A DNA stretch of 63,994 nt, counting the filler, from Intoshia linei (taxonomy: Eukaryota > Animalia > Orthonectida), in the NCBI GenBank assembly GCA_001642005.1. It is 12 parts of 12 records of this genome, joined end to end, with 100 filler letters (N's around TTAATTAATTAA, not from the genome) between each part and the next. Parts side by side here need not be neighbours in the genome. Positions count along the whole stretch, not along the records: positions 7,037 to 10,703 come from LWCA01002056.1; 11 more parts are not named here. The stretch is one strand, 5' to 3'. The position numbers and the translations under genes are program-made. Shown one piece after another: positions 2,879 through 58,778 of the stretch (positions are counted from its first letter, which is position 1; each line of letters starts with the position of its first letter). Below the pieces are notes generated by a model that searched no databases, was not told the DNA's origin, and saw nothing but the letters and a program-made list of their open reading frames with translations.

Positions 2879-4177
2879 AACTGCACCGCAAAACTATGTG
2901 TAAAATCCAATTTTTGCAATTAAATATATTTATTAAACTTATAATTATATATTTTGATTTACATTTTAATATAATACTGATTATTAACTTATATTAAAAA
3001 TTTTGAGAAATTCCATTAATAAATTAACTAAATAACTAACAATTAAAATTTAAACTTTGAAATATGTGTCTCAAAATTATGTGAAAAACGCATAAAAGAT
3101 ACAAAAAAAATAATTTATTTATATATAACAACAATTTTAATACTTGATTATAATTCCTCCTGTTGCTTCTAACACTTCGACCAATCTTGAGGGAAATGAT
3201 TCTACCAATTTTTTTATTTCCTGTATGTCAAGGGCATCCCATATACATTTAATTTCTGCCTTTAATTCAATATTATTATGATACACTTTAGTTCCAGGGT
3301 ATAGTCGACGAACCATTATAGCCCAAAGGTTCTCAATAAGATTGCAATCAGGACTGTATGGTGGCCAATCAAGAAATTGTATGTTATTTTCACGTATAAA
3401 CTCCATACTTTTCCTGCATCAATATAAAATCGTTTTGATAAAAAGGAAGATAGGATTTGGTCAATATGTCTATATATGCATCTGAATTTACATTTTGGTC
3501 GGTAAAATAAATAGATATGGTACCGTTTAATCCTATTCCTGCTCATACCACAATGCTTTTCGAGAATAGTTTTTTTCCGAAAAATTTTCAAATTTGTAAC
3601 CATTTTTAGCCAAAAATCTAATTTTTTTTGATAATATAATTATATATATATATATTACCTGTACACCGTATCTTTTGAGACATTGAGATTCAAATTAGCT
3701 ATTAAACGTGCTGCAGTATGAGAATCATCTTTTATTAGTTCAAGGCAAATATGCCTTTTCGTTCTATCATCAAATAATTGAGACTTCTCAGAAGGTAATT
3801 TTTTATGCAGTTATATGATCTCCCTAATCTATCTACAATTTGGCCAATAGGTACCTTTTCTTCGGAAAGAGATTGTATTACACCTTGTTCAAACTCCGAT
3901 AATAAGTTACCACGTTTTGGCATTTTAAAAATAAGTTTCTATGATAATAAACTCAATTAAAAAAATATAATTTCACATAGTTTTGCGACAAAAATTTCAG
4001 AATTTAAAATTGAATTGTTAATTATTTAGTTAATTAGATGATAAAATGTGACGAAATTTTGCATATTAGTTAAGATTCAACGTCATATTGACATGTCATG
4101 ATAAGAGTTAATTTAGAATAATATAAATATATTTAATGGCAAAATTTGGAGTTTGCACATAATTTTGCAGTGCAGTT
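2879..4177 (-). mobile_element. Tc1/Tc3-like DNA transposon, decayed, long IR/DR-type inverted repeats, TA target duplication
   Basis: TA-AACTGCACCGCAAAACTATGTG ... CACATAATTTTGCAGTGCAGTT-TA; inner repeats near 3065 and 3975; HTH ORF 3735-3923 and WPPYSPDCNLIENLW catalytic motif in ORF 3137-3406. Confidence 0.92.
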
Positions 4178-4871
4178 TACATTGTACATAGTGAATTGCA
4201 CAATAGTATTAATATCAGTGCACAATAGCTCGTATATCAGTGCAAAACACTGTAAATGGTCCTATTTTGTAAAAAAATGATTCTTACTAATCACTTGTGC
4301 CTAAACTTGAGATTCAAGTAAATAAAGCCCATTAACAATATAAAATGTTTATTTTTAGTGAGGCATACTCTATCAATATTTGAAAATCCTACACAATGTA
4401 TAGTATAAATTAAAAAGAAATTTTTAATGCCAAGCGTTAATTATTTAAAAAATCTAAAATTCCTAAAAATCATCAGTGGATATATAAATGCCAATTATCA
4501 ACATTTACGCATGTGTGCAAATATAAACGTTATATAAAATATCACATTCTACTTCAAATGTATAACAAAAAGGTGATTGTTTAAAATCAGCAATGTATGT
4601 TAAATATTGTTGCATAATTTTTCAATAAAATGTTAATAATGAATTAATAAATATTTTAACAAATGATTAACATTTTTAATTCATATTAGTCACAAAAATT
4701 TTAAATCATTTTTAACCATTCTAAAAATTGTTTAAAAATTGAAATGAAAGAATTAACAAAGGTTAAAAAATTTATATTTATAATATTGATGAGTTTAATT
4801 GGTCAAAAATCCTGTGTGGGCGAAATTCGTAAGATAAACCGTATATATTAACGTTATATAATTTATTTTAG

Positions 4872-6908
4872 CAGTATGTTCAGAATATTTTGATTTAACA
4901 TTTATATTATGTGCACGAAATAGTGACGAATGGGACAGAGTGAAACAGATAGCAGTGGGTGTAGTTAAAAACTCTGATATTGGATTCAGAAAAACAAGAG
5001 TAAGTGTCATTACTTATTTCGATGGTCCAAAACTTGTTTTAAGATTTTCAGAAAATCCAAGTGTCATAGTTTCCACCATTAATGATATCTCACATGATTA
5101 TTTTGTGTACAAACGTGATATTATTTCAGGGTTAAAAGAAATGACAACAATGTATGACACTGATCAAGGCCAGAATCCTAATATTGTCATTATTTTTGCA
5201 GATGAAATTTCAGATGATGATAAGGGTGATATTACTGAAACCATAAAATTGGCATATATTGATAATATCATGATTATACCAATCAGTTTTGATGCCGAAG
5301 ATGAACTGTTCATTAGCGAAATATCTTCTCCTCCAAAACGGCTTGCTGAATTAGATAGATTTAAAGATAGAAATTATTTTATTCTGAATACTAGCGAACA
5401 TTCATCAGTCTACATAACTCAAATTTCACAATCTTTGTGCAATATTAAATGTAATATTGATTTATTATTTAAATAATGACATAACTTATAATTAAGGAAA
5501 GTTTTTAATTGTCCTAAAAATATTAAAATATCCTATTAATTAGTGTATCAATTTCACCGATTTTTGATTACCGCTAATTGCTTTTTAAGAATAGCTTAAA
5601 TCATCCTTAAAAAGAATAAAGTATAAATAATAATTTAATTACTTTAACAATGAAGAATTAATTAAGAATATATAAAAACAATATTAAATGGGCAATTCCA
5701 TGTGAAAACGACATATGGTAGTAACCTGACCATTAGGGTGTCCACTTTTCTTTATTACAAAAACCCATTTTGCATGTGTATGCCTTTTTTGCTTTTAAGC
5801 ATTTATTACCCATAAATAATTAAATCGGCTAATATTTTTCCCCCCCCCCCCCAAATGTNNNNNNNNNATTTTTCCCCCCCCCCCCCAAATGTAATTATTG
5901 AAATTCATACAAAAATTATAAATATATAACATCTCGTTATTAAATACAGCAATAAAACATTCAATCAACGCCACGTGCCTGATTAGAATAATATATAATA
6001 TTCCATTTTTACGGATCGTTAAACTCATATTATAAATATGTAAATAATTGATATGATTACATTATATAATTTATATAAATGATTATATATATTGACGTCA
6101 AAATGTGTTAAGATAATATTAATTTTTGACGTAAAAATGCGTCTAAATTTCTCAAATGTTAAGATATCAAAATTAGAATGTATAAAATTTTACTTTCCCT
6201 AGTTATAATTACAATTATATATAATTATTATAATAATTATATGTATGTAAATTTTATTTCATTTAGATCACGATTGTTTGTCCACTCCATTCAATTTTGC
6301 AATTCTGGTAGATATATCATATAGTTTGTGTGAAAATTCAAATATTCAAAATCAAATTACCAATTTTTTAACAAAATTAATACATGAAGTTGATAGCCAT
6401 GCAATAGTAAAAAAATATTTTTCTATTGCTGCATTCGCTGAAACTACTGAGATTTTAATAAATTTTACTACAGATATTAAAAATGTTATAAAAACTATTG
6501 ACAATTTGCCATGTTCCAAAAACGAGACTTTAATATACCAATCCATAAATACTTTAAAAGATGACATTTACTCAGATAAACACGAGTATCATAAAAAAGG
6601 TCGTAATTACGCCATTTTAATTACTGATGCTATTCAGGACAGCCTTCATAGAGAAGAAATGTATATTAGGGAAGCAAAAGAAGACAAAGATATTACTGTT
6701 ATACCAATAGGTATAACCAATAGTGATGAATCATCCAAAATGATTATACAGCTTAAACGTATTAGCTTGTCGCCACATAGGGAAAATGAAAATTACTTCA
6801 TAGTTGATAATATTAACCAACTGAATGGAAAAATTAAATCCATTTTAGATGCAATGGAATGTTATAAATTGATTCCACCGGAAACCACAACGCCGACACC
6901 TGTTACAG
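4872..6908 (+). CDS. Two internal exons of a multi-von Willebrand factor A domain protein (collagen VI/matrilin-like); gene incomplete
   Basis: Exon ~4872-5450 (FDLTFIL...TRVSVITY...IIPI) and exon ~6269-6908 (FAILVDISYS = DxSxS MIDAS, AILITD, VIPIGI, T/P-rich linker), each with polypyrimidine-AG and GT borders. Confidence 0.8.
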
Positions 6909-6936
6909 GTACATTATTATTACATATTATCTATAG

Positions 6937-7036: not shown

Positions 7037-7079
7037 TACTATTAAGTAATCACAATAAATTTAATTTGTAAACAGTACT

Positions 7080-8145
7080 AATAAAAATAACTGAATACAA
7101 CCGAGTTGTCAACAGATAAATTATCTTGTTCCGAGTACTTTCGAGTAAAAACGATATTATTTAATTTTGAACAATTTTAAAAGAAAAATGAGTAACTTCG
7201 TTGTGAAATTGAATAATATAATTCAGCCAGATTACAATAAATTAGTCCAGAAGATGAACACTCATAATGATGTGTGGGTGTTCGATCAAGTTGACGTTAA
7301 TGTTGTGACCGTGTTAGATGCTATGACAAATAATCTTGTAAGTACATCATATGTCTCAATAACGTTGTTACCGTTACTGTTGTTTACAAATGCCGCCCAT
7401 GATGCGACTACCAAAATGATCGGAGTTACAGATGTGAATGATGTTAATATTGATTTCATTTTCGAAAACGACACGCACAATGGGTATACAAGTAACAAAA
7501 AAGATTACGTCTTATGGCTCAATTTCAAACCCTACATGTATGACTCATCAAACACAATATATTTTTTGGAAATTATAAAACAGTGTGGTGGAGCGATCAT
7601 TATAAAGATTGTAAAAAATGAAAGAAAATTTGAAGATATACCTCGGCACATCCTATTGGATGATGGAGTTTTGATTTTGGCCCCAACTGTTAATAGTTCT
7701 ACTGGATCAATCGTCGATCGAGCTTTTATTCTGAAAAGAAAGAAGTTTGACTGACTAGTTAGTGCAATATGTGGTTCTGAAGATGATTACGGTAAATTAG
7801 AGAGAACCATCCAAACGGTAAGATAACCACATACACATTATTGCTAAAGAATTGAATAAAGATTCTACCGCCGATATACAAATAATAAGTCAAGCTCTTT
7901 TATTATATGTAGAAAGACTTAACTTATTTACGAAAAAAGCTATCATTGTCGACCGCAAAAAATTCTTGGTACAGAAATTAAAAAATCTGTTACGTATCAG
8001 CGTCAGTGGTATTATGTTAAACGGGATATCTAACACCATCTTAAAATATTCGAAAGTGTACTGATGAGAATGAAAATAGCAACTTACAGGGTAGACAAGT
8101 TAGTACCCGTTGTATCTGAACTAAGTCTTTTCGACGCAGTTTATG
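7080..8145 (+). pseudogene. Endogenous viral element: alpha-like (virga/nege-like, Martellivirales) methyltransferase/capping enzyme C-terminal region, decayed
   Basis: ORF 7167-7754 has VFDQVDVNVVTVLDAM...LPLLLF, IDFIFENDTHNGY, YFLEIIKQCGGAIIIKIVK, matching in spacing the tobamovirus-type LHSIYDI...LLL / FSFASESTLNY / YMKEF..WFCKF blocks; no introns; reading continues through stops and frameshift (IISQALLLYVER). Confidence 0.65.
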
Positions 8146-8423
8146 AATTTTTGAAATCATGAACAAGTGGTTCAAACGTATGATGGAGCAAGTGTAATGT
8201 CTTCTAGTTTAAAAAGTACAAGCTAAAGAAAAGAAAATTTCCCCATCAGCTCTGTTTACACATTGCGACGCTCATAAATTAAATTTAGTTTTGTCTCAAT
8301 AAAACAAAAATAGGCCCGAATGTAAATTATTTTTTAATGACGTACGATGGTTTGTCTGCATTTTGTGAATCATTCTACATTAAAAATTCAATTACTTGAT
8401 GAAATAGTTAATCGTATCGTATA

Positions 8424-10468
8424 CACTCCGTTTCAAAAATAACGCAACATTATTAAAAGCTCTGTAATAATTTTTAAAATTATTTTTGTGCTCAAAGATT
8501 AAATTTGACATTAGTACTTATAATTATAATTATGAAAGGTGGAATGATAGTCTTGAAGTATATAAATAAACGTAACACAATGTCAATGTCAGTCTTCAAT
8601 AATAAGGTAACGAATGACGGTCTCTTACTTAAGAATGATAATATGGTTTGACTCTGGATAAAAGTAGTCCATTTAGGAAAAGAAAAGATTACAAACGTAT
8701 CAAAACTTTAATTGATCATAATTCGATTAATTAGTGAAGAGCATTTGTATCACCAGAGGTTGAAATGTAAATTGATAATAACATTATGAATAATACTGTT
8801 AGAATTGTAATGTGATGTTATATTTTAGAGTTAATTAACGTTCAAATGAAAACTGGAATTGACAAAAGTTCTAAAATTTATGATGAAGTGAAGCAGTACG
8901 AATTGACTCATACAAATAAAAAAGACCGATTACTGGATAACGGAAAAGTAATACTCAGAAAGTTACAAGAGAAGATTCGAAACATTTACATTATGATTTA
9001 TTATTATTTTTGTAAGAAAAATCAAAAATCGGAAAATGGCGAAAAATTTAATGAAAGACAATTTGAAAATAAAATCTATAATTATGCTAATTTCCTTATG
9101 TATCAACATAATGCCAACACTAATCGCCAGATAATTACTCAGTTATTAACTGAATAATGCACTGATTTCTGTCAGAACGAATTGTTGTTAGAGGGAGTTA
9201 TACTGGGCAAACCAAAAATATATTTATGGTTATTACGAAATAAATTCACCCAAGAGTATCTAAACCAGATACAAACATTTATCTTAAGTATTGAGTCAGC
9301 TGTGATCAAAGCGAATAATTTACGAACCCATAAATTGAAAAAACTTAAAAATATGCATGATAGTGATATTAAACAATACGAAATTGACACTTTGAAACTG
9401 ACTGAAATTAAACAAGTGACGAAAATGATAATTAATAATAAAGAGAAAATACACGAATACACCATTATCAAAGAATCAATCAAAGCAATAGCTAATAACG
9501 TTCAAGAAAACATCTCAAAAATTGATGACACTCTTAAAACAGTGGAAAAAAATTATAATTATAATTATAATCATTTGAAATGATATTACATTATATTTAA
9601 TTTAAATAATTACAAAATATTTTAATTCAAAAATGTTATAGCAAAAAAACTAAATTTTAAATAATATATGTTGTTTTAAAAATAACGCAACTTTTCAATT
9701 ATTATCCACTGTTACGCTTTATTTGATATTAATTGTAATTATTTTTTTATTTAATGATCACATGATATTGTTGTACATAACAATTATACAATATTTAATT
9801 TTTAGCTTTATGACAAATAGAAAACCTCATTTATCTGAAGGGGACATTCAAAGGGTATTTATGATGCGATTAAACAATAAAACATTGTCTGAAATAGCGT
9901 CAACCTTTAATGTTAATAAATCGACCATTCATAGAATCTTGAAAAAAGAGAATAAGCCCGACAAAAGAGGTAGACCAACTAAAATCTTTAGGGAATTATG
10001 ACTAGGGCATTATATAAAAACAATATAAATTATTATTCGATTGAGACTCTAAAAAAGCAATTAAGAAGGAATGGGATAGTATTAGCCCTGACACCTTAAA
10101 GAAATTAGTTGATTCTATGAATGGTCGTATTTTTAAATTAATAAAGGCCAATGGATCGTTTCTTCACGAATATTAAGTAAAAAGTTTATTTTATATAATC
10201 TATAATTAGATTTTAAAAAAAGTTGCGTTATTTTTGCAACATTTTTTAATTGTAAAAATTATTAAACTTTCTGATAAATTGGGTTTATATATATATTTTT
10301 ATTTGACATTATCTCTTAGAAAAATAAACTATGTAAACATAGGTGTTCAGTTACATTAGACAGTCAGACATTAATTGTATCGTTACAAGTTTGTATTTTC
10401 TCAATTTAATATTTTGTGAGCCTTTAAAAATAAACAAATACGAGTTGCGTTATTTTTGAAATGGAGTG
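8424..10468 (+). mobile_element. Tc1-like element with internal transposase deletion and ~1 kb cargo
   Basis: TA-CACTCCGTTTCAAAAATAACGCAAC ... GTTGCGTTATTTTTGAAATGGAGTG-TA; inner repeats at ~9676 and ~10221; HTH ...GRPTK at 9810-10000 fused to the C-terminal EEWDSI...DSMNGR segment at ~10040-10170. Confidence 0.92.
8830..9583 (+). pseudogene. Unknown helical/coiled-coil coding fragment carried inside the Tc1-like element
   Basis: ORFs 8846-9157 and 9182-9583 are in the same frame, separated by one stop; preceded by a TTTTAG acceptor-like site at 8829; no transposase motifs. Confidence 0.5.
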
Positions 10469-11054
10469 TAGAAGTAATAGAATTATATAAAACGTATTCC
10501 TAGGGCTGCTCCGACAAGATAAAGTTCTAAATCCAAATTAGTTCAAACTATAATACACTATCATTATGCTCTCTGTCAGCTTTTCGGTTCTATTATTGAT
10601 AATCACTTTACGTGGGATTCTAATACGTCATTGGTGAGCCAAGGCTTTATAAATTGGTTAATGAAAGATTCAACTTATTTTTTACTTGTTGTGTATAACG
10701 AAANNNNNNNNNNNNNNNNNNNNNNNNNNNNNNNNNNNNNNNNNNNNTTAATTAATTAANNNNNNNNNNNNNNNNNNNNNNNNNNNNNNNNNNNNNNNNN
10801 NNNTGTTATTTCATTGTCTTCTTTTAGACATCCTTAGAAAAGGTTAAAAACTCTATGTTAATTTATATATTAACCAAAAAATGAATACTTTGATTCTGAT
10901 TAATATTAATTAAATTAAACTATGTAATCCTATTTACCTAAATCCTGTTAGTTAGACATCAATCAGACACCGATTATTCTTGTTTCATTATTATTAATTC
11001 AACATAAACAATTCATTTAATTTGATTTTAAACCATACACTGACAATAATAAAA

Positions 11055-44402: not shown

Positions 44403-45667
44403 ATTATTCTGCAGATCGTTAAATGATTACACGACGGGAGAGGCAATTTTTCTAAAGGTGTATGAATTTTTCAGGTAGTTCTGTCTTAAATGGAATAATT
44501 TCATTGGTATTTGTACTGATGGTGCAGCTGCAATGACTGGTAGACTGAATGGATTTTATTCTAAAGTTAGACCAACGTGTATTAATCCTATTAATTTTAC
44601 ACATTGCATGATTCACCGAGAAGGGCTCGTCTCTAAGAAAATTTCAGAGGATTTGAATTCTGTTTTACTAGACTCCACTAAAATCATTAATTTTATATTA
44701 TCTCGCGCCCTTAATACGCAAGTTTTTGCAAATTTATGTGATTCTATGAAGTCTAACCTCAACTCTTTATTAACCTTTACTATTATTGATATACGGTGGC
44801 TTTCAAGAGGAAGAGCTTTGAAACGTCTATTAATGTTAAAAAGTGAAGTTATTCTATTTTTCTCGGAAAATAACAAAATTAGGAAAATTTTTACAAAACA
44901 GAAATTGGATGTGGAAATTATATTATTTGTCAGATTTATTTGAAAAATTAAATGAATTGAATATTTCACTTTAAGGAGACCATGCTAATATTTTTAAATT
45001 ATTAATAAAATCTAAAATTCAGGACTTTATAAACAAATTAATATTATGGAAAAATAAAATTGAAAAAAATCTATATGAAATATTTTCTGATACAGAAAAT
45101 TATATTGCTGATAATGCATTGAATATGGATTCTATTAAGGTTGTAATTATTGAACACTTACAGAACTTACAAACCAACTTCACAAAATATTTTTTACCGG
45201 AATTAACCAATAATAAATTTGATTGGATACAAAGTCCATTTTTCGATGAAATCAGTAATGTTGATCACTTAGAATTAGAGATACAAGAAGAATTTCCATC
45301 TCTATCAAAAATGGCTATAACTATTCTTCTTCCGTTTTCTACCACTTATCTAGATGACTCAGCCTTTTCAAAGATGACCGAAATAAAAAAAAAATAGCGT
45401 TCCAGTCTTAAGGATATAGAAATGGTTCTAAGACCAACAATCACAAAGATTAAGCCTCAATTTAATTTATTATGTAAAAAGCAACAATTACGTACATATC
45501 ATTAAAATTTATATAATTATTTTTATTTTATTGATAAGCGTTATTTTCGTGTCTTCATTTCCAATCACTGTGTACATTTTTAGGCTACCAACTTAGTAGT
45601 TTTTTTAATAAAATGTATATTATTTTGATGAACAGGGGTCGTGAGTTAAAAAGTGTGAGAAGCCCTG
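44403..45667 (+). pseudogene. hAT transposase (Buster/FAM200/SCAND3-like) with right terminus
   Basis: CTDGAAAMTG, HCMIHRE, RWLSRG, PFSTTY; ends GAGAAGCCCTG. Confidence 0.9.
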
Positions 45668-46552: not shown

Positions 46553-49500
46553 ATGAAACGCAAAGTGAACGATTGTAAAACAATTGATAAAGAAAATGAT
46601 CAAGTTTCGTAATTTTAACGAAAAAATGAAATAATCCTGTATTTAGAGATTTAAGTTATAATATATCCTCATCTGAATTAGACACATCTTTTGATGCCGC
46701 TTTTTCATCGGGTATATTTTGTTTGATTTGATTTGTTTTTTTTTAATTGATAAATGCTAGATAATGAATATGAAGACATGTAATATTAAATTAAACAAAC
46801 TTGTCAACAATATGTATTTGTATTATTTTTAAATAGTAAAGGATTTCACCAGTTTCATAGATGTACAGTTTTAACTGTTATCGAAGAAGGGTAAATTTAA
46901 AAAAATTAGTCTAAAAGTATATATAGTGACATAAAAATTTTAAATGTAACCTCGAATAATTGTATCAAAAAAATTGAATTGCATGATTCCTGGTAATTTT
47001 TATCAACATTTATACATTAGCTTGTTACAGGGTAAATACCGAATTGAAATCTGGATCTGTTGTAAACATAGTTTATTCAATTAATTGTACAATTGGCAGT
47101 ACAGTTATTGTCGATAATAATAACCATTTTCTCATTGTTGATCCAGACATTTGTATTGCTGGAACAACTATAGTTAGCTGCTTACGATGCCCCAGACAGT
47201 ATAATTATATTATATTTATTACATCATATTAGATCCATCCTAGATTTGATTTTTAAGGTAGTTTTTATTCATTTATTTTATCACAATTAATTAATTAATT
47301 ACAAGCATATAAATACATTGTGTAAAAATTCATCATTTTACTAGGTTTAAAGTTTAAACTTTACAACGTTGATTGTAATAATTTTCTTTTTTTGGATTAG
47401 TCATGTCAAACGACTTATTTTTCACATTATGGATATCTCCGGTGTCCGGTTTTACCTCTATAGCTTTTTTAGGATTAGTTACTTAATGTTTTAAAATTTA
47501 AATTGTGACATAAATGTTTTATATTTTTTAAATGTCATAAATGTATTAATTTAAATTTTTTATTTTTAATATCGTTTTATTTCCGTTTTAATTATTTATT
47601 ATTAGTATAATTTTATATCCAATAAAGCAATGATAATTGGAAATATTGTCCACAATGTGACTCAAAAGGTTTTATATTTATTGTATAATAATATAATAAT
47701 TATATTATATATAATAAGTCATTATTCAGCTCATAAAAAAAATAAAAATCATAAAAAGAAGGTCTCATAAATTTTACTACTATCGTACTGACCTCATTTT
47801 ATAATAATAGTATTAGTAATACTATTATTAATTAAAAAATTTTTACAAGCGTTATATTTACGTATATTTTATGTTTTTTTTTGAGGGAGTACCAATTGGT
47901 GAGAATTTAAAAATTGCGTAGCAATGAAAAAATTCCGAAGGAATGAATTATATAGATTTTCACCCATATTTCTTTATTGGAAATGTGTAGACGTTCAATG
48001 AACATTTTTTTGAAATTGTAGGATCAATATTTACATTTTCAATTTTTATTTTAATCGAAATATTTGAAAAATATTGGTTGATAATATATAAAAAATTATG
48101 TATTAACTGGAATAACCTTAATCAGAATAATCTCTTTTTTTTAATTCTCGGACCTTTAATTATTTCACATTTTTTGTTTTAATAAAATATTTCGGAAAAA
48201 AAAAATATAAATAATAAAATGCTTTTTTGACCGTGAAGTCGTCACTTATTTGGATTGAAATTTTTTGTGTGTTTTAACAGGATACAAGTATGATATAACT
48301 GTACCACTTGTAACATTTTGTAAATTCTAGGGCTGTTTTCATTAAAAAAAGAAGGGTAATTTGTGGTTTTGGCCCTGAAGATATTTTTTTTAAATTTAAA
48401 TTCATGATAATGTTTATGATTTTAAAATCCGTATCAGCGTATATATTTTTTTAAATTCTCGAACTCGTTTGATTTTCAAAAAAAAGACAATTGGGATATA
48501 TATTTTTTTAAATTCTCCAACTCGTTTGATTTTCAAAAAGAGGGACAATGTTTTAAATTCTCTAACTCTTTGATTTTTAAAAAGAGGGACAATTGGATTT
48601 TTGGCCCGTAAGATGTGAGTTTTAGAGGTTGAAATTTATCTTATTATACGTCCCGGAAAAAACTGTAATTGAAATGTGGAGTTTATAAAATTCTAAGACT
48701 GGTAGTTATTTCAATAAAGTGGAACACACACACAAACAAAAATCCCGTAGCATATTATATAAGTTTTATTTTATATAAGCAATTTTGTAAAACTGGAATT
48801 TTTTCTAAAGGGTTTTTAAACCGAATTTTTTCTGTTAGGGTTGGTAAAAATGATCGGATTTTAATAAAAATGATTGGATTTAAGTAGACACCCTTATATA
48901 AGTAAGGATGGTTTTAAGCGAAATTTTTTTTACCATATTTTAAAGAAAGTTTAAGGGAATTTTATTTGACCATATTTTCGGGAGGTTTTTAGATAAATTT
49001 TTTAACCATACTTTAAAGAGGGTTGAGAAATTTTATTTTACCATATTTGAAAGAAGGTTTTGTGCAAATTTTATTTAACTATATTTTAAGAGGGTTTTTA
49101 TGGGATATTTTTTTATCACATTTTCAGAGGGGCTTTTAGGGAAATTTTTTTATATAAAAATTTTAAAGAGCATTTTAGGCGATTAATTTTACAATTGGTA
49201 ACTTTAACAAGAACTTTTACTTAAAATTTAATGGGTTTGGGTTTTTTAATTATAATTTTGTTTGTTCCATCTTTTCTACGAAAGTGAGATGTGTAAAATT
49301 TTAAAAACATCAATTTATAATACAATTTTTCGAGAATTAGATTATATTGCAAATTAGATTATAGAAATTTAGTCTTTCAGGGTTTCAGGCTAAAAAACAC
49401 CAATTATCTTTTTTTTAAAAATAAAACTGGAACTAAAATTTTTTTAAATCTATATTCTGATACATATTTTAAATCATGAACATTATAAATTTAAATTTCA

Positions 49501-53769: not shown

Positions 53770-55811
53770 GTTTAATATACATTTAAGTCTACTTATAATA
53801 TTTTAATTTCTAAAATAAGTAATTAAATCATATTAATTTAACAGCAGTACAAATTAATTTATAAAATACTTTTCTTTTATTTTTTAAAAAAAGGTAATTT
53901 GTGGTTTTGATGGTGAAAATACACTTTTTGAGGTTGTGATTTATGGTAATGTTTATAATTTTAAAATCTATACAACAATTTATGTTGTACAAAATTCTAG
54001 GAGTTTTTTCATTTTCACAAAAAAGTGTAATTTGAAGTTTTTACAGTAAAGATATAAGATTTTGAGATTTAAATGTATAATAATGTTGATGATTTTAAAA
54101 TCTTTATCAGATTGTGTATTTTTTATAATTCTAGGATTCGTTTGAATTTAAAAAAAGGATAATTGGGTTTTTGACCTTGGAGGACTCAATTTATGAAAAT
54201 GAAATTTGCAATAAAACATCACACTCCAAAAACTGTATTAGAAATATGGAATTTTTAAAAATCGACTCGATTTTATTAAATAAATAAACAGACATATATT
54301 TTTAACTAAATTACTTTATATACTACTGCAGTGGTATCTCTCAATATTGATCACTTTTAACGAAGATATCCACTTAATGTTGTCAATTTTAAAGTCCTGG
54401 TACTCCGTAAATTCATAAAAAATGCACTATATCAAATTTGATACATTCGTGACGAAAGGGATAATATGAGAATTATAAAAATTACATATTTTTTTAAAGC
54501 GGTAACTTTTGAGATGTTGCGACATTAAATGCCAACTATTTTTATGAAGGGTCGTTTTAGATGGTAATTTTTGAGAGCGACCACTGAATAAGAGAATGAT
54601 CTTGCCACATTTCTCGATAAAAATCAAAATAAATTTAAAATTTTTTTTCATTTTGTATATGTAGGTCGTGAAAGTTATCAGTATCATTGTCAATATAATG
54701 GCAGTGTAATAGATTTCTTTTTTTAGTTTAGTATTTATACTTTTTATGTTATTGATTTATTAATTGTAATTGTATATTAGAATCGATCCATCATTTCAAA
54801 TTGTCGTAATTATTTGGAATCAAGTATTGTTTCTACCATTGTTGCTAATTTTCTTAAGGTTATTTTAAATTTCCTATATTTCCTGATTTGATTAAGTTCC
54901 TGAGACAATATTGTATTATTATTATACAGTTCCAAACCTACTGTACCCAACAACCGTCTTTTGTGACCTCGAAGAAATTTTTGTAAACTGGGGCGTCATT
55001 TTTCCAAATTAATATGAAAAAATTATATTCTTGAACATCATAACTATTTTGTGTTAAATTTAAAATTCCAAGTCAAGAGTCTTGGAGAGGTTGATAGGGT
55101 TCTTAGTTAAATTTTTATAAGGGTTAAATTTTCAATTTCAGTAGTATCTATCTTTGTAGATTCTGCTCTACAACGATATGTAGATTTTATTAATGTTTAG
55201 ACCTTAAAATTGAAACTTAAAACTGTCAAATTGTACAAAGTATTGATTATATATTATTACTATTAGGTTATTCACAAAGTAATGTCGTTTTTATAACTAT
55301 AATTAAAACTTCTATAATAACAANNNNNNNNNNNNNNNNNNNNNNNNNNNNNNNNNNNNNNNNNNNNTTAATTAATTAANNNNNNNNNNNNNNNNNNNNN
55401 NNNNNNNNNNNNNNNNNNNNNNNCTAAATCTGTTTGAAGAATCATGTCTTGCTGGCTTGGTTCGGCTTCATCTGCACAATCCTCTTATATCATTTTTTTC
55501 ACTTTCTTCATTTGTTTTATCGGCTGTGGCAATATTTTCAATCTATATGTATATTAACAAAACTTATATTAGTATTCGGAATCTTGCAATCTATCAAATA
55601 AAATATGTTCAAACAAGATCTACATTATATGCAGTCTATATGAATAGTGAATTTAATCAGAATAAAATGTACATTTGTGCCGTAAAAGTAGTAGTACGAA
55701 TGGAAATGGAGTAACAGACCACAAACGCGTCCATTAAGTAAAGCAAGCAGCAAGTAGTTTGATTTAAGTTGTTACTGTGAATCAGGTAATGCTGGAAAAA
55801 TCAATAACATA

Positions 55812-56842
55812 TTCATGCATTTACACGAACTACATTCACTATCTTCGCTTTCTTATTTTGATATTCATGAACTGTGGAAACATCAGCACCAGTTCACTGT
55901 TTCAACAATTTCTTTTCATGATGAGTAAATGTCAAGTATTTAACATCATTAACGGTTGGCACACTAAACAAGCCTGATATTTTTATGACAAAACATGAAG
56001 AATATACTTCATGTGCGGATTTTAAGATTGAATCGAAACCAAAATCATGATGCAATCTGTTGTAAGAGGGGATAGACGATATATAACATCAACAGGACAT
56101 CTATAAGACAAAGATAGCACCGAAGTTATTTTAATAAGGTTAGGTAATGATGCATATCTGAGATAAAAGTCTGGTAGTCTAGTGACAAAAGGAATTTGCA
56201 TAAAATCACCTACAAAATATAAATCAGTAGTACCACACACAAACGCACAAAGCAATAAAGCACCAGGATGTGACATCAATGCCTCGTCAAAATACATCTT
56301 GTCAGTTCTTTCAACATCATTATTGTTCAATAAATAAGATGCGACTGTTCTTACCAATTTATTCTGCTTGTGTTTACTCAAAATTGGTATTTTATGGTAT
56401 TGATTCATGCGATTTCCCACGTCATCTCTACCCTCACATGTATTCACAATTATAGTATCAACTTTTTCACCATTCATGATAGAGTTAGCATTACTAATAA
56501 TGTGTGTGGTCTTTCCTGTGCCTGGTACGGCTTGTATAAATGTATATTTTACATCATACAAAGTCGGAAATGTCAAAAATTGACGTACAATGTCTATCTC
56601 CATTCCTATTTCACAGTAATCGTTCACCGCACATAAGTCATCTTTGAAAGTTCCTAGTTTCGAAAAGTCATGGAACTCATTCTTTGAGAAAAATTTGCTA
56701 TAGTTGGGTTTTATTTCTTTAGGTTCTAAAAGGTATATCATAAAGTCACTACTAATTTTGAATAAAACATAATAGCTTAAAATGTACCATTATTAATATA
56801 TTTCCTTATTCTATTTGGTAAATAGATTTAAGTCTAATTTGT
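55812..56842 (-). pseudogene. Endogenous viral element: virga/nege-like superfamily-1 RNA helicase (Viral_helicase1), decayed
   Basis: AVPGTGKT (I), RTVASYL (Ia), FDEALMSHPG (II), GDFMQIPF (III), SYRCPVDV (IV) in ORF 56022-56741; after disruption KYLTFTHHEK..*..TVHEYQNK.A..V.VVR (V) at ~55815-55960. Confidence 0.92.
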
Positions 56843-57590: not shown

Positions 57591-58778
57591 ATTAGTAGAG
57601 TAAGTAAATTAAAGTAAAAAGTATTAGCAGCCTCAGGTGAGACAATATCTGATATTAACTGTACCTGTACTTTCCATTTAGCGCCAAGAGCAGCATATGC
57701 TGGTTTTTGAAAATAGGGAAGATCCATCTCTTCAAGCATATCTCCTTGTACATCAATTGTACGAGTAACTTTTAAGTAATTCATACCAAAATCAGTACTA
57801 GATGATGTGGCAAATATTGCAACACGAGCAGCTATCATTGCGGAGGCACTAAAATGAAAATATAGCTTTACACCACAACGAGAACAAGCAAACTATTGAG
57901 CCAAATACCTACCAGGGGTATAAACACTACTGCCAGCAAAATTATTTGAAATAAGTAAATTAACAGTAAGATCTAAGGTTTTGTCTGTATTAGAGAAAGT
58001 TTTCCAGGTATAAAATGTTGGTATCGCACCAATAGCTTCTATAGACATGTCTTCTTTTTTATATCTATAGGAGGTTGTTTATCATCGGCCCTATAGGATA
58101 AGGTCAAAACATTTGAAATACCAACTGAATTCGAAGTAGAATAAGCATTTCTCGCAAATAAGGCAGGACCCGTTTCAGACCGAGGGTGGGAGGGGCCTAA
58201 AAAAACAACCAAGGATATAAAATTATATGCATGACCTACAAAAGTCGTTATACCTCCAAGGATAGAAGAAAAAGTCTCAGACCAAGTACCAGTCAATTTT
58301 TTTTTTCTCCTGATTATCCATAAGCCAAATGTAAAAGATACTCTTTAGTAACTTTAGTAGGCTCATCATCTGTTATAAGTTGCTGAAATAGCAATCTGTC
58401 TATTTATTTCATCAATATCTTCTTCTTCATCCATCTCACTAATTTCCGAATCTGATTGGCCCAAGCAATAGCAGCATTTGGACCAATCTCCGAAAATTTA
58501 TGATACGAGAGACCAGTTTGTCCAAGATAGCCAAAAAGACGGACATTAGAGATACGCGCCCAAACTAAAATTTGAGGAGAATCAATATCTGAAGGCTCAA
58601 TTGGAGTCAATCTATAAAGATCAAATAGGCTGAATTTACTAACATCGGAAATCTGATTGCTTGTAAGGTCAACTGGGGAAGCAGTAATCTCATAATGTGT
58701 AAGGATCCAATTGTATGGATAATGCCCACTAAGACATATGCCAAATTTGCACATAAAAATTTTAATATTTAACCTCAC
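57590..58778 (-). pseudogene. Endogenous viral element: picorna-like (dicistro/marna/ifla-type) capsid polyprotein VP2-VP4-VP3, decayed
   Basis: VP2 end (HYPYNW, LYRLTPI, ILVWARISNVRLFG); VP4/VP3 junction-like LGPSHP (cf. GF/SKP); VP3 EDMSIEAIGAIPTFY, YLAQ*F..RCGVKLYFHFSASAMIAARV, TIDVQGD...LPY, VQLISDIVSP; at least one stop and frameshifts. Confidence 0.85.

What the first reader, a model, noticed from the sequence alone, without database searches (positions are those of the whole stretch)
7080..8145. Probable fossil alpha-like viral methyltransferase, possibly from the same virus lineage as the helicase
Seen: an intronless 195-aa ORF continuing through stops and a frameshift. Its blocks DQVDV...DAM...LPLLL, IDFIFEND...GY and YFLE...GAIIIKI match by eye the C-terminal half of the virga-like capping enzyme. 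Inference: a second piece of a virga/nege-like replicase. This is the weakest of the three viral calls.
Basis: inference. Interest (0 to 1): 0.7.

Follow-up and report, generated by a model that had tools for sequence, protein, structure and literature searches.

The report
Fossil RNA-virus capping gene fragment
A broken 1-kb piece of an RNA virus's capping-enzyme gene sits between repeats in the DNA of what is likely a tiny parasitic marine animal (an orthonectid); it lacks the catalytic half and is likely a dead fossil of an undescribed virus lineage that probably entered this genome more than once.

Summary
Confirmed. ORF 7149-7754 (188 aa from ATG 7188) is the second half of the Core plus the start of the Iceberg region of an alphavirus-supergroup capping enzyme (MTase-GTase). 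Pfam and large single-sequence searches miss it. Profiles built without it from 23 and from 48 other viral replicases score it 41.5 and 32.3 bits (E 2e-12, 1e-9); the next of 463 window ORFs scores 5.2 and 4.1. The catalytic His, DxxR and cysteine pair are absent, and a stop and one or two frame changes follow, so it cannot cap RNA. It is a ~980-bp unique, intronless insert (7180-8161) between high-copy repeats. A second copy, 77% identical, is annotated in Intoshia linei, the likely host. The copies differ more like diverged viral proteins than like a decayed duplicate, which suggests separate insertions. A known kind of viral fossil, from a very divergent lineage in a barely sampled phylum. 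The scan's notes held nothing on it.

The parts
7180..8161 (+). Unique virus-derived insert (endogenous viral element), about 980 bp, 33% GC, no intron needed
   Evidence: One 1079-bp contig of run X1 (7134-8212, 0 differences) spans it and reaches 46 and 51 bases into the flanking repeats; repeat copies diverge at 7179 and 8162; GC
7188..7754 (+). 188-aa open frame: second half of the MTase-GTase Core and the start of the Iceberg region; ends at an in-frame stop
   Evidence: fold searches
7293..7646 (+). Significantly aligned block (profile positions 155-271 of about 490), holding the Core-ending Tyr at 7485 and the Iceberg Glu at 7569
7188..7292 (+). Leading 35 codons with no detectable match; no catalytic His, HxC, DxxR or cysteine-pair motif in any + frame of 7037-7300
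   Evidence: (score -2.1)
7755..8161 (+). Broken continuation, likely the rest of the Iceberg region; frame change near 7820 and probably at about 8030-8060
   Evidence: colinear but weak scores
7037..7179 (.). High-copy repeat on the left, family not established
   Evidence: summed depth 231 in X1; no match to the window's hAT-like ORFs
8162..8420 (+). Multi-copy repeat on the right, starting with a broken hAT-like transposase piece
   Evidence: aligns to the window's transposase-like ORF at 44479, 0 of 2000 shuffles as good; the hAT label rests on a weak Pfam hit beside that ORF and recalled motifs
55816..56789 (-). Separate fossil: viral superfamily 1 helicase, nege-like; link to the MTase piece unproven
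   Evidence: Pfam Viral_helicase1 E 2.9e-12

Best explanation
This is a broken fragment of the capping-enzyme (MTase-GTase) region of an alpha-like positive-strand RNA virus replicase, lodged in animal DNA between repeats; it lacks the catalytic half, so it is likely a dead fossil, likely copied into DNA by a host reverse transcriptase, and likely one of at least two separate insertions from a divergent Martellivirales-like lineage. Shown: homology, missing N-terminal motifs, breaks, repeat flanks, a 77% identical second copy. Inferred: the host (Intoshia linei, from the names of the sister copies), the route of integration, separate insertions, and lack of function.
For: Profiles built without the query score it E 1.8e-12 (23 replicases), 1.2e-9 (48 other replicases) and 1.7e-11 (all 71). 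Plain BLAST hits one replicase in its capping domain: L038, 25% over 128 aa, E 2.6e-6 within my reference set. The Core-ending Tyr (71 of 71 references) and the Iceberg Glu (52 of 71) are kept. The model built with viral rows matches chikungunya nsP1, nodavirus protein A and nsP1 (Z 7.5, 7.4; next 5.2) and Martellivirales replicases. The DNA is in a run on record as DNA, bridges into repeats on both sides, and has depth 19.6 against 10.4 for the host Dna2 gene. Of 17 differences from P0002, 7 need two or more base changes, against 1.1 under simulated neutral decay (0 of 3000 runs); the helicase pair gives 11 of 24 against 1.5. One stop in about 324 codons fits only about 2% decay, too little for 23% protein divergence.
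Against: Pfam Vmethyltransf does not hit the ORF. Searches of 1.84 and 5.8 billion proteins found only P0002 and the ORF itself. The fold result is partly circular: with P0002 alone pLDDT was 32, with 16 viral rows 72. Four near-invariant motif positions differ from the family, among them the betaG His (70 of 71 references), which is absent in both copies. Differences between the copies were not significantly biased to variable columns (p 0.26). Only one sample holds the DNA and it may be the window's own source. No reverse transcriptase gene, target-site duplication or poly(A) was seen at the junctions (by eye).
Confidence: 0.85

Rival explanations
1. Domesticated gene: a truncated capping domain was kept by the host as a working protein, for example a dominant-negative subunit that would jam the viral capping ring, and the two copies are paralogs under selection.
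For: The first 188 codons are open from an ATG 8 bases inside the insert while the breaks cluster downstream. The copies diverged with a signature of constraint. Both lack the same conserved His.
Against: An open 188-codon frame is expected about 57% of the time at 2% decay. The frame ends inside the Iceberg region and viral-like sequence goes on past the stop. P0002 is only 75 aa. The helicase pair shows the same constraint pattern, and one of that pair runs into a BED-finger-like tail. Flanks are repeats.
Confidence: 0.06
2. Foreign DNA: the contig comes from another organism in the sample (such as the invertebrate in which the parasite lives) or is an assembly chimera.
For: Fragmented assembly with 100-base N linkers; a single sample holds the stretch; depth is about twice that of Dna2.
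Against: Depth is not below the host gene's; one contig bridges both junctions into repeats that are high-copy in the same run; three further related viral pieces lie in this window or in the assembly named for P0002 and P0003. Even then it would remain an endogenous viral element, only of another host.
Confidence: 0.05
3. Chance resemblance or a cellular orphan or methyltransferase gene.
For: No Pfam hit; the Atlas gave only sub-threshold neighbours, some of them class I SAM methyltransferases (0.83-0.84); identity to viruses is at most about 25%.
Against: Two independent viral profiles give E 1e-9 or better, with shuffled, reversed and 462 other ORFs at 6.6 bits or less; no cellular homolog was found.
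Confidence: 0.02
4. Sub-question: the MTase piece and the 56-kb helicase come from the same nege-like virus lineage. Compatible with the best explanation.
For: Both occur as pairs at 66-77% identity with the same divergence pattern. [quoted passage not shown] The four best matches to one 11-residue motif are nege-clade viruses (motif chosen after the fact).
Against: Best hits differ: L038 for the MTase, Wuhan insect virus 8 and Wuhan house centipede virus 1 for the helicase. Rank correlation 0.10 over 65 viruses. The nege profile scores the ORF 16.8 bits against 36.8, 28.8 and 22.2 for three other groups. The free MTase tree puts it elsewhere, on a long branch.
Confidence: 0.45

Closest known systems
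MTase-GTase capping domain of the alphavirus supergroup, alto group (Pfam PF01660 Vmethyltransf; Core and Iceberg regions of Ahola and Karlin 2015, PMC4392871)
   Same: Colinear match from the end of strand betaC to the early Iceberg strands; Core-ending Tyr and betaI Glu kept; predicted fold like chikungunya nsP1.
   Different: N-terminal half absent; betaG His and three neighbouring-motif residues differ; about 25% identity at best; below Pfam detection; broken.
Virga/nege-like invertebrate viruses (unnamed IMG/VR contig L038; Abisko virus; Culex pipiens-associated Tunisia virus; Negev, Loreto and Wuhan house centipede virus 1 group)
   Same: Source of the best pairwise and profile scores.
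   Different: No close relative: branch to the nearest reference is 3.6 changes per column; placement unresolved.
Martellivirales/Virgaviridae-like non-retroviral endogenous viral elements of insects (e.g. Bombus, PMC12922265: 121 Martellivirales-level and 29 Virgaviridae-like elements, 20 with methyltransferase domains)
   Same: Single- or low-copy sub-genic replicase fragment of about 1 kb, in repetitive DNA, GC above the host background.
   Different: Host is likely an orthonectid, not an arthropod; flanks seen here are DNA-transposon-like, not LTR elements; far more divergent from known viruses.
Viral-family RdRP gene noted in Intoshia linei (PMC6396948, section 13)
   Same: Same likely host; shows RNA-virus genes were already noticed in this proteome.
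   Different: That paper covers polymerases only, in one sentence and a figure I could not see; which viral family applies to Intoshia was not readable; no capping or helicase piece is described in the passages read.

Membership tests
Alphavirus-supergroup MTase-GTase (homology) | Significant profile similarity to the Core/Iceberg region | tested here: met
   E 1.8e-12, 1.2e-9, 1.7e-11 with three profiles; 16 of 16 references tested match PF01660
Alphavirus-supergroup MTase-GTase (homology) | Pfam PF01660 at or above its cut-off | tested here: not met
   No hit at E up to 1
Alphavirus-supergroup MTase-GTase (homology) | Conserved Tyr at the start of strand betaG | tested here: met
   Tyr at 7485; 71 of 71 references
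Alphavirus-supergroup MTase-GTase (homology) | nsP1-like fold | tested here: inconclusive
   nsP1 and nodavirus protein A rank first, but the model needed viral rows in its alignment; Z 7.4-7.5
Working capping enzyme | Catalytic His upstream of helix alphaA | tested here: not met
   Profile positions 1-154 unmatched
Working capping enzyme | DxxR SAM-binding motif, HxC motif and cysteine pair | tested here: not met
   None in any + frame of 7037-7300
Working capping enzyme | Complete Iceberg region in one frame (essential per PMC4392871 section 7) | tested here: not met
   Stop at 7752-7754 and frame changes
Alto group | His at the end of betaG | tested here: not met
   70 of 71 references have it; neither copy does
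Alto group | D/E in the middle of betaI | tested here: met
   Glu at 7569; strand label assigned by me from the alignment
Alto group | Scores better against alto than tymo or hepe-like profiles | not tested
   My 71 references were gathered through helicase, replicase and MTase alignments of alto-type viruses; no competing profile was built
Nege-like clade of the 56-kb helicase | Same best hits and supported grouping in the tree | tested here: inconclusive
   Best hits differ; grouping not rejected
Non-retroviral endogenous viral element | RNA-virus sequence present as DNA and joined to host sequence | tested here: met
   One contig of run X1 bridges both junctions into repeats; X1 may be the window's own source
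Non-retroviral endogenous viral element | Germline inheritance: present in independent individuals | not testable with these tools
   One sample only
Non-retroviral endogenous viral element | Source of piRNAs or siRNAs | not testable with these tools
   No small-RNA data at hand

The most novel reading that the evidence does not exclude
Orthonectids host, or hosted, their own deep-branching alpha-like RNA virus lineage whose capping enzyme departs from motifs that are near-invariant in 71 reference viruses; it entered the genome repeatedly (two MTase and two helicase copies, perhaps the reported RdRP too), leaving the first record of a virus of this phylum. A bolder form, that the catalytically dead half was kept as an antiviral decoy, is at about 0.06.
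Probability: 0.5. Interest if true: 0.6.

Novelty: new member of a known kind. Interest (0 to 1): 0.42.

Why it matters
Virga/nege-like fossils are well known in insects. Here one lies, most likely, in an orthonectid, a highly reduced parasitic animal for which my four searches naming Intoshia or Orthonectida found no described RNA virus or endogenous viral element, only a one-line note of a viral polymerase. It widens the host range of alpha-like viruses, gives a probe for finding the living virus in marine invertebrate transcriptomes, and shows a capping domain that standard Pfam screens miss. It does not reveal a new mechanism.

Tried and rejected
Pfam on the ORF and its continuation: no Vmethyltransf. 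PDB by sequence: nothing. Atlas: nothing at 0.9 or more. Word-indexed protein searches, near and longer lengths: only the ORF itself. Metagenome scan with ORF plus P0002: 146 pattern matches, 0 relatives. Viral-contig scans with single proteins: none. Two-against-two profile comparison: probability 5%, E 0.007. Fold with two rows: unusable. A first rank correlation of 0.58 on 23 viruses was dropped: one column was misaligned, ranks changed on realignment and it fell to 0.10 on 65 viruses. The first test of the broken tail used an unintended frame for its last piece; redone, still weak. Careful (bootstrap) trees did not finish; all trees are quick searches, and the constrained MTase trees beat the free one, so the free topology is unreliable. 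No RNA holder listed. No whole genome held, so other copies could not be counted and P0002's DNA was not seen. Short GT-AG stretches lie near the frame changes; splicing around the breaks was not tested. The scan's own notes had nothing on this place or sequence; four word hits concerned DNA-virus relics in other genomes.

Full report
Setting. The window is AT-rich (26% GC) eukaryotic DNA made of short contigs joined by 100-base N linkers. It carries von Willebrand A domains, a diacylglycerol kinase, Dna2 and a 3'-5' exonuclease. The finding lies on the contig 7037-10703, the helicase on 55424-56842. No whole genome was held. The closest relatives of both viral pieces are named Intoshia linei proteins (P0002; P0003), so the host is likely this orthonectid; the window's own label is withheld and this is inference.

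Observation. The ORF runs 7149-7754, 188 aa from ATG 7188. An in-frame stop follows at 7752-7754, with a frame change near 7820 and probably another at about 8030-8060. In run X1 one 1079-base contig covers 7134-8212 without a difference, while many repeat copies part from the window at 7179 and join at 8162. The unique insert is therefore about 7180-8161, at 33% GC. Its depth is 19.6, against 10.4 for the contig holding Dna2. The tool warns that depth is no copy number; it argues against a trace contaminant and may mean two collapsed copies. X1 is the only holder of 3 runs listed and may be the window's own source.

Homology. Standard searches fail: Pfam, PDB sequences, the Atlas, and protein libraries, which return only the ORF itself and P0002, 75 aa and 77% identical. 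I therefore collected viral replicases without using the ORF: two through the helicase and 115 viral loci. A profile of 23 capping regions scores the ORF 41.5 bits (E 1.8e-12). The next of 463 window ORFs scores 5.2, the reversed ORF -2.0, and none of 2000 shuffles exceeds 6.6 (1781 were scored). A profile of 48 other capping regions gives 32.3 bits, and all 71 give 38.3. All 16 references tested are PF01660 members. Plain BLAST finds L038 at 25% over 128 aa, E 2.6e-6 within this set. A model built with 16 viral rows (pLDDT 72) matches chikungunya nsP1 first in the PDB (E 3.5e-4), nodavirus protein A and nsP1 first among 48,161 chains (Z 7.5 and 7.4), and alpha-like replicases in BFVD. This last line is partly circular, since the ORF with P0002 alone gave pLDDT 32.

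Anatomy. Ahola and Karlin (PMC4392871; I saw the abstract, passages, and sections 6 and 7) define a Core with a catalytic His, a DxxR motif and a final Tyr, then an Iceberg region that is essential for activity. The match spans profile positions 155-271 of about 490. The Tyr (71 of 71 references) and the Iceberg Glu (52 of 71) are kept. Positions 1-154 are unmatched, and no HxC, DxxR or cysteine-pair motif occurs in any + frame of 7037-7300. The betaG His (70 of 71) is absent from both copies, and three residues of the motif that opens the match also differ from the family. Past the stop the sequence stays colinear with the Iceberg region but scores weakly (z 1.1-2.0; the 71-sequence profile extends to ORF residue 196). 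The piece cannot be a working capping enzyme.

History. One stop in about 324 codons corresponds to roughly 2% neutral decay (a very rough figure). The ORF and P0002 differ at 17 of 75 residues, 7 of which need at least two base changes, against 1.1 expected under neutral decay (0 of 3000 simulations); the helicase and P0003 give 11 of 24 against 1.5. The divergence therefore built up mostly under constraint, most simply in the viruses before separate insertions, and the odd motifs likely belong to the source virus. An RNA virus needs a reverse transcriptase to enter DNA; capture by host retroelements is the standard route (PMC12922265, passages). Here the right flank is a broken hAT-like transposase piece, the left repeat is unclassified, and no duplication or poly(A) was evident at the junctions. 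The edges may have been trimmed by later insertions. This step is inferred.

Same virus as the helicase? The helicase (Pfam E 2.9e-12) has best hits in Wuhan insect virus 8, Wuhan house centipede virus 1, Big Cypress and Loreto viruses (37-38% identity at best) and groups with the first two at SH-aLRT 95 inside a nege-like clade at 97. PMC7154061 (passages) puts those two viruses in a nege/kita-like group. The MTase does not share this ranking: rho 0.10, p 0.42 over 65 viruses; top-10 overlap 1 of 10; nege profile 16.8 bits against 36.8, 28.8, 22.2, 9.0 and 4.6 for five other groups. In the free tree it sits on a long branch elsewhere. Yet holding it with the helicase's relatives is not rejected (AU p 0.77 and 0.76), and one 11-residue motif, chosen after the fact, matches nege-clade viruses best. 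The question is open, at about 0.45.

Prior work. Martellivirales-like elements, including methyltransferase pieces, are common in bumblebees (PMC12922265, passages). PMC6396948 (passages, section 13 and a search of its supplements) notes a viral-family RdRP in Intoshia linei; its figure was not visible, so the family is unknown to me. Searches for Intoshia with 'endogenous viral' (0 papers), with 'RNA virus' (that paper only), and for orthonectids with virus terms (PMC11097642 passages) found no description of these fragments. Subscription journals are not covered.

Verdict. A real, hard-to-detect fossil of an alpha-like capping enzyme, non-functional as an enzyme, likely from a deep unsampled lineage that entered this genome more than once. 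New member of a known kind; interest 0.42.

Noticed in passing
window 8517-9578: A second unique insert (one 1135-base contig, depth 17.4) inside a repeat; a low-depth contig joins 8516 to 9579 as an empty site would. It holds broken frames 8816-9157 and 9158-9583 with no Pfam hit and no Atlas hit at 0.9. Origin unknown.
   Followed up: partly
window 57600-58778 (-): A chain of broken frames that by eye recalls a negative-strand virus nucleoprotein; no Pfam hit at E 0.1. The label is recalled and untested.
   Followed up: partly
P0003 (422 aa, named Intoshia linei): Second helicase copy, 66% identical to the window's, cut after the first helicase motifs and running into a BED-zinc-finger-like tail (E 0.041): another viral piece against a likely transposon remnant.
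   Followed up: partly
window 55816-56789 (-): The helicase fossil continues past a stop and a frame change to about 55816 and groups with Wuhan insect virus 8 and Wuhan house centipede virus 1.
   Followed up: yes
window 9800-10180: Helix-turn-helix and further remains resembling a Tc1-type transposase (HTH_38 E 1e-4; second copy near 3137-3262); the Tc1 label is recalled.
   Followed up: partly
window 47688-48782: Very high-copy repeat, summed depth 6,000-14,000 in run X1 against about 10 for genes.
   Followed up: no
window 4862-5476 and 6251-6936 (+): Two tandem von Willebrand A domains (E 1e-13, 2e-14), likely exons of one host gene on the contig left of the finding.
   Followed up: no
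window N gaps: Each gap is 44 N, a 12-base palindrome with stops in all frames, and 44 N: an assembly linker, not biology.
   Followed up: yes
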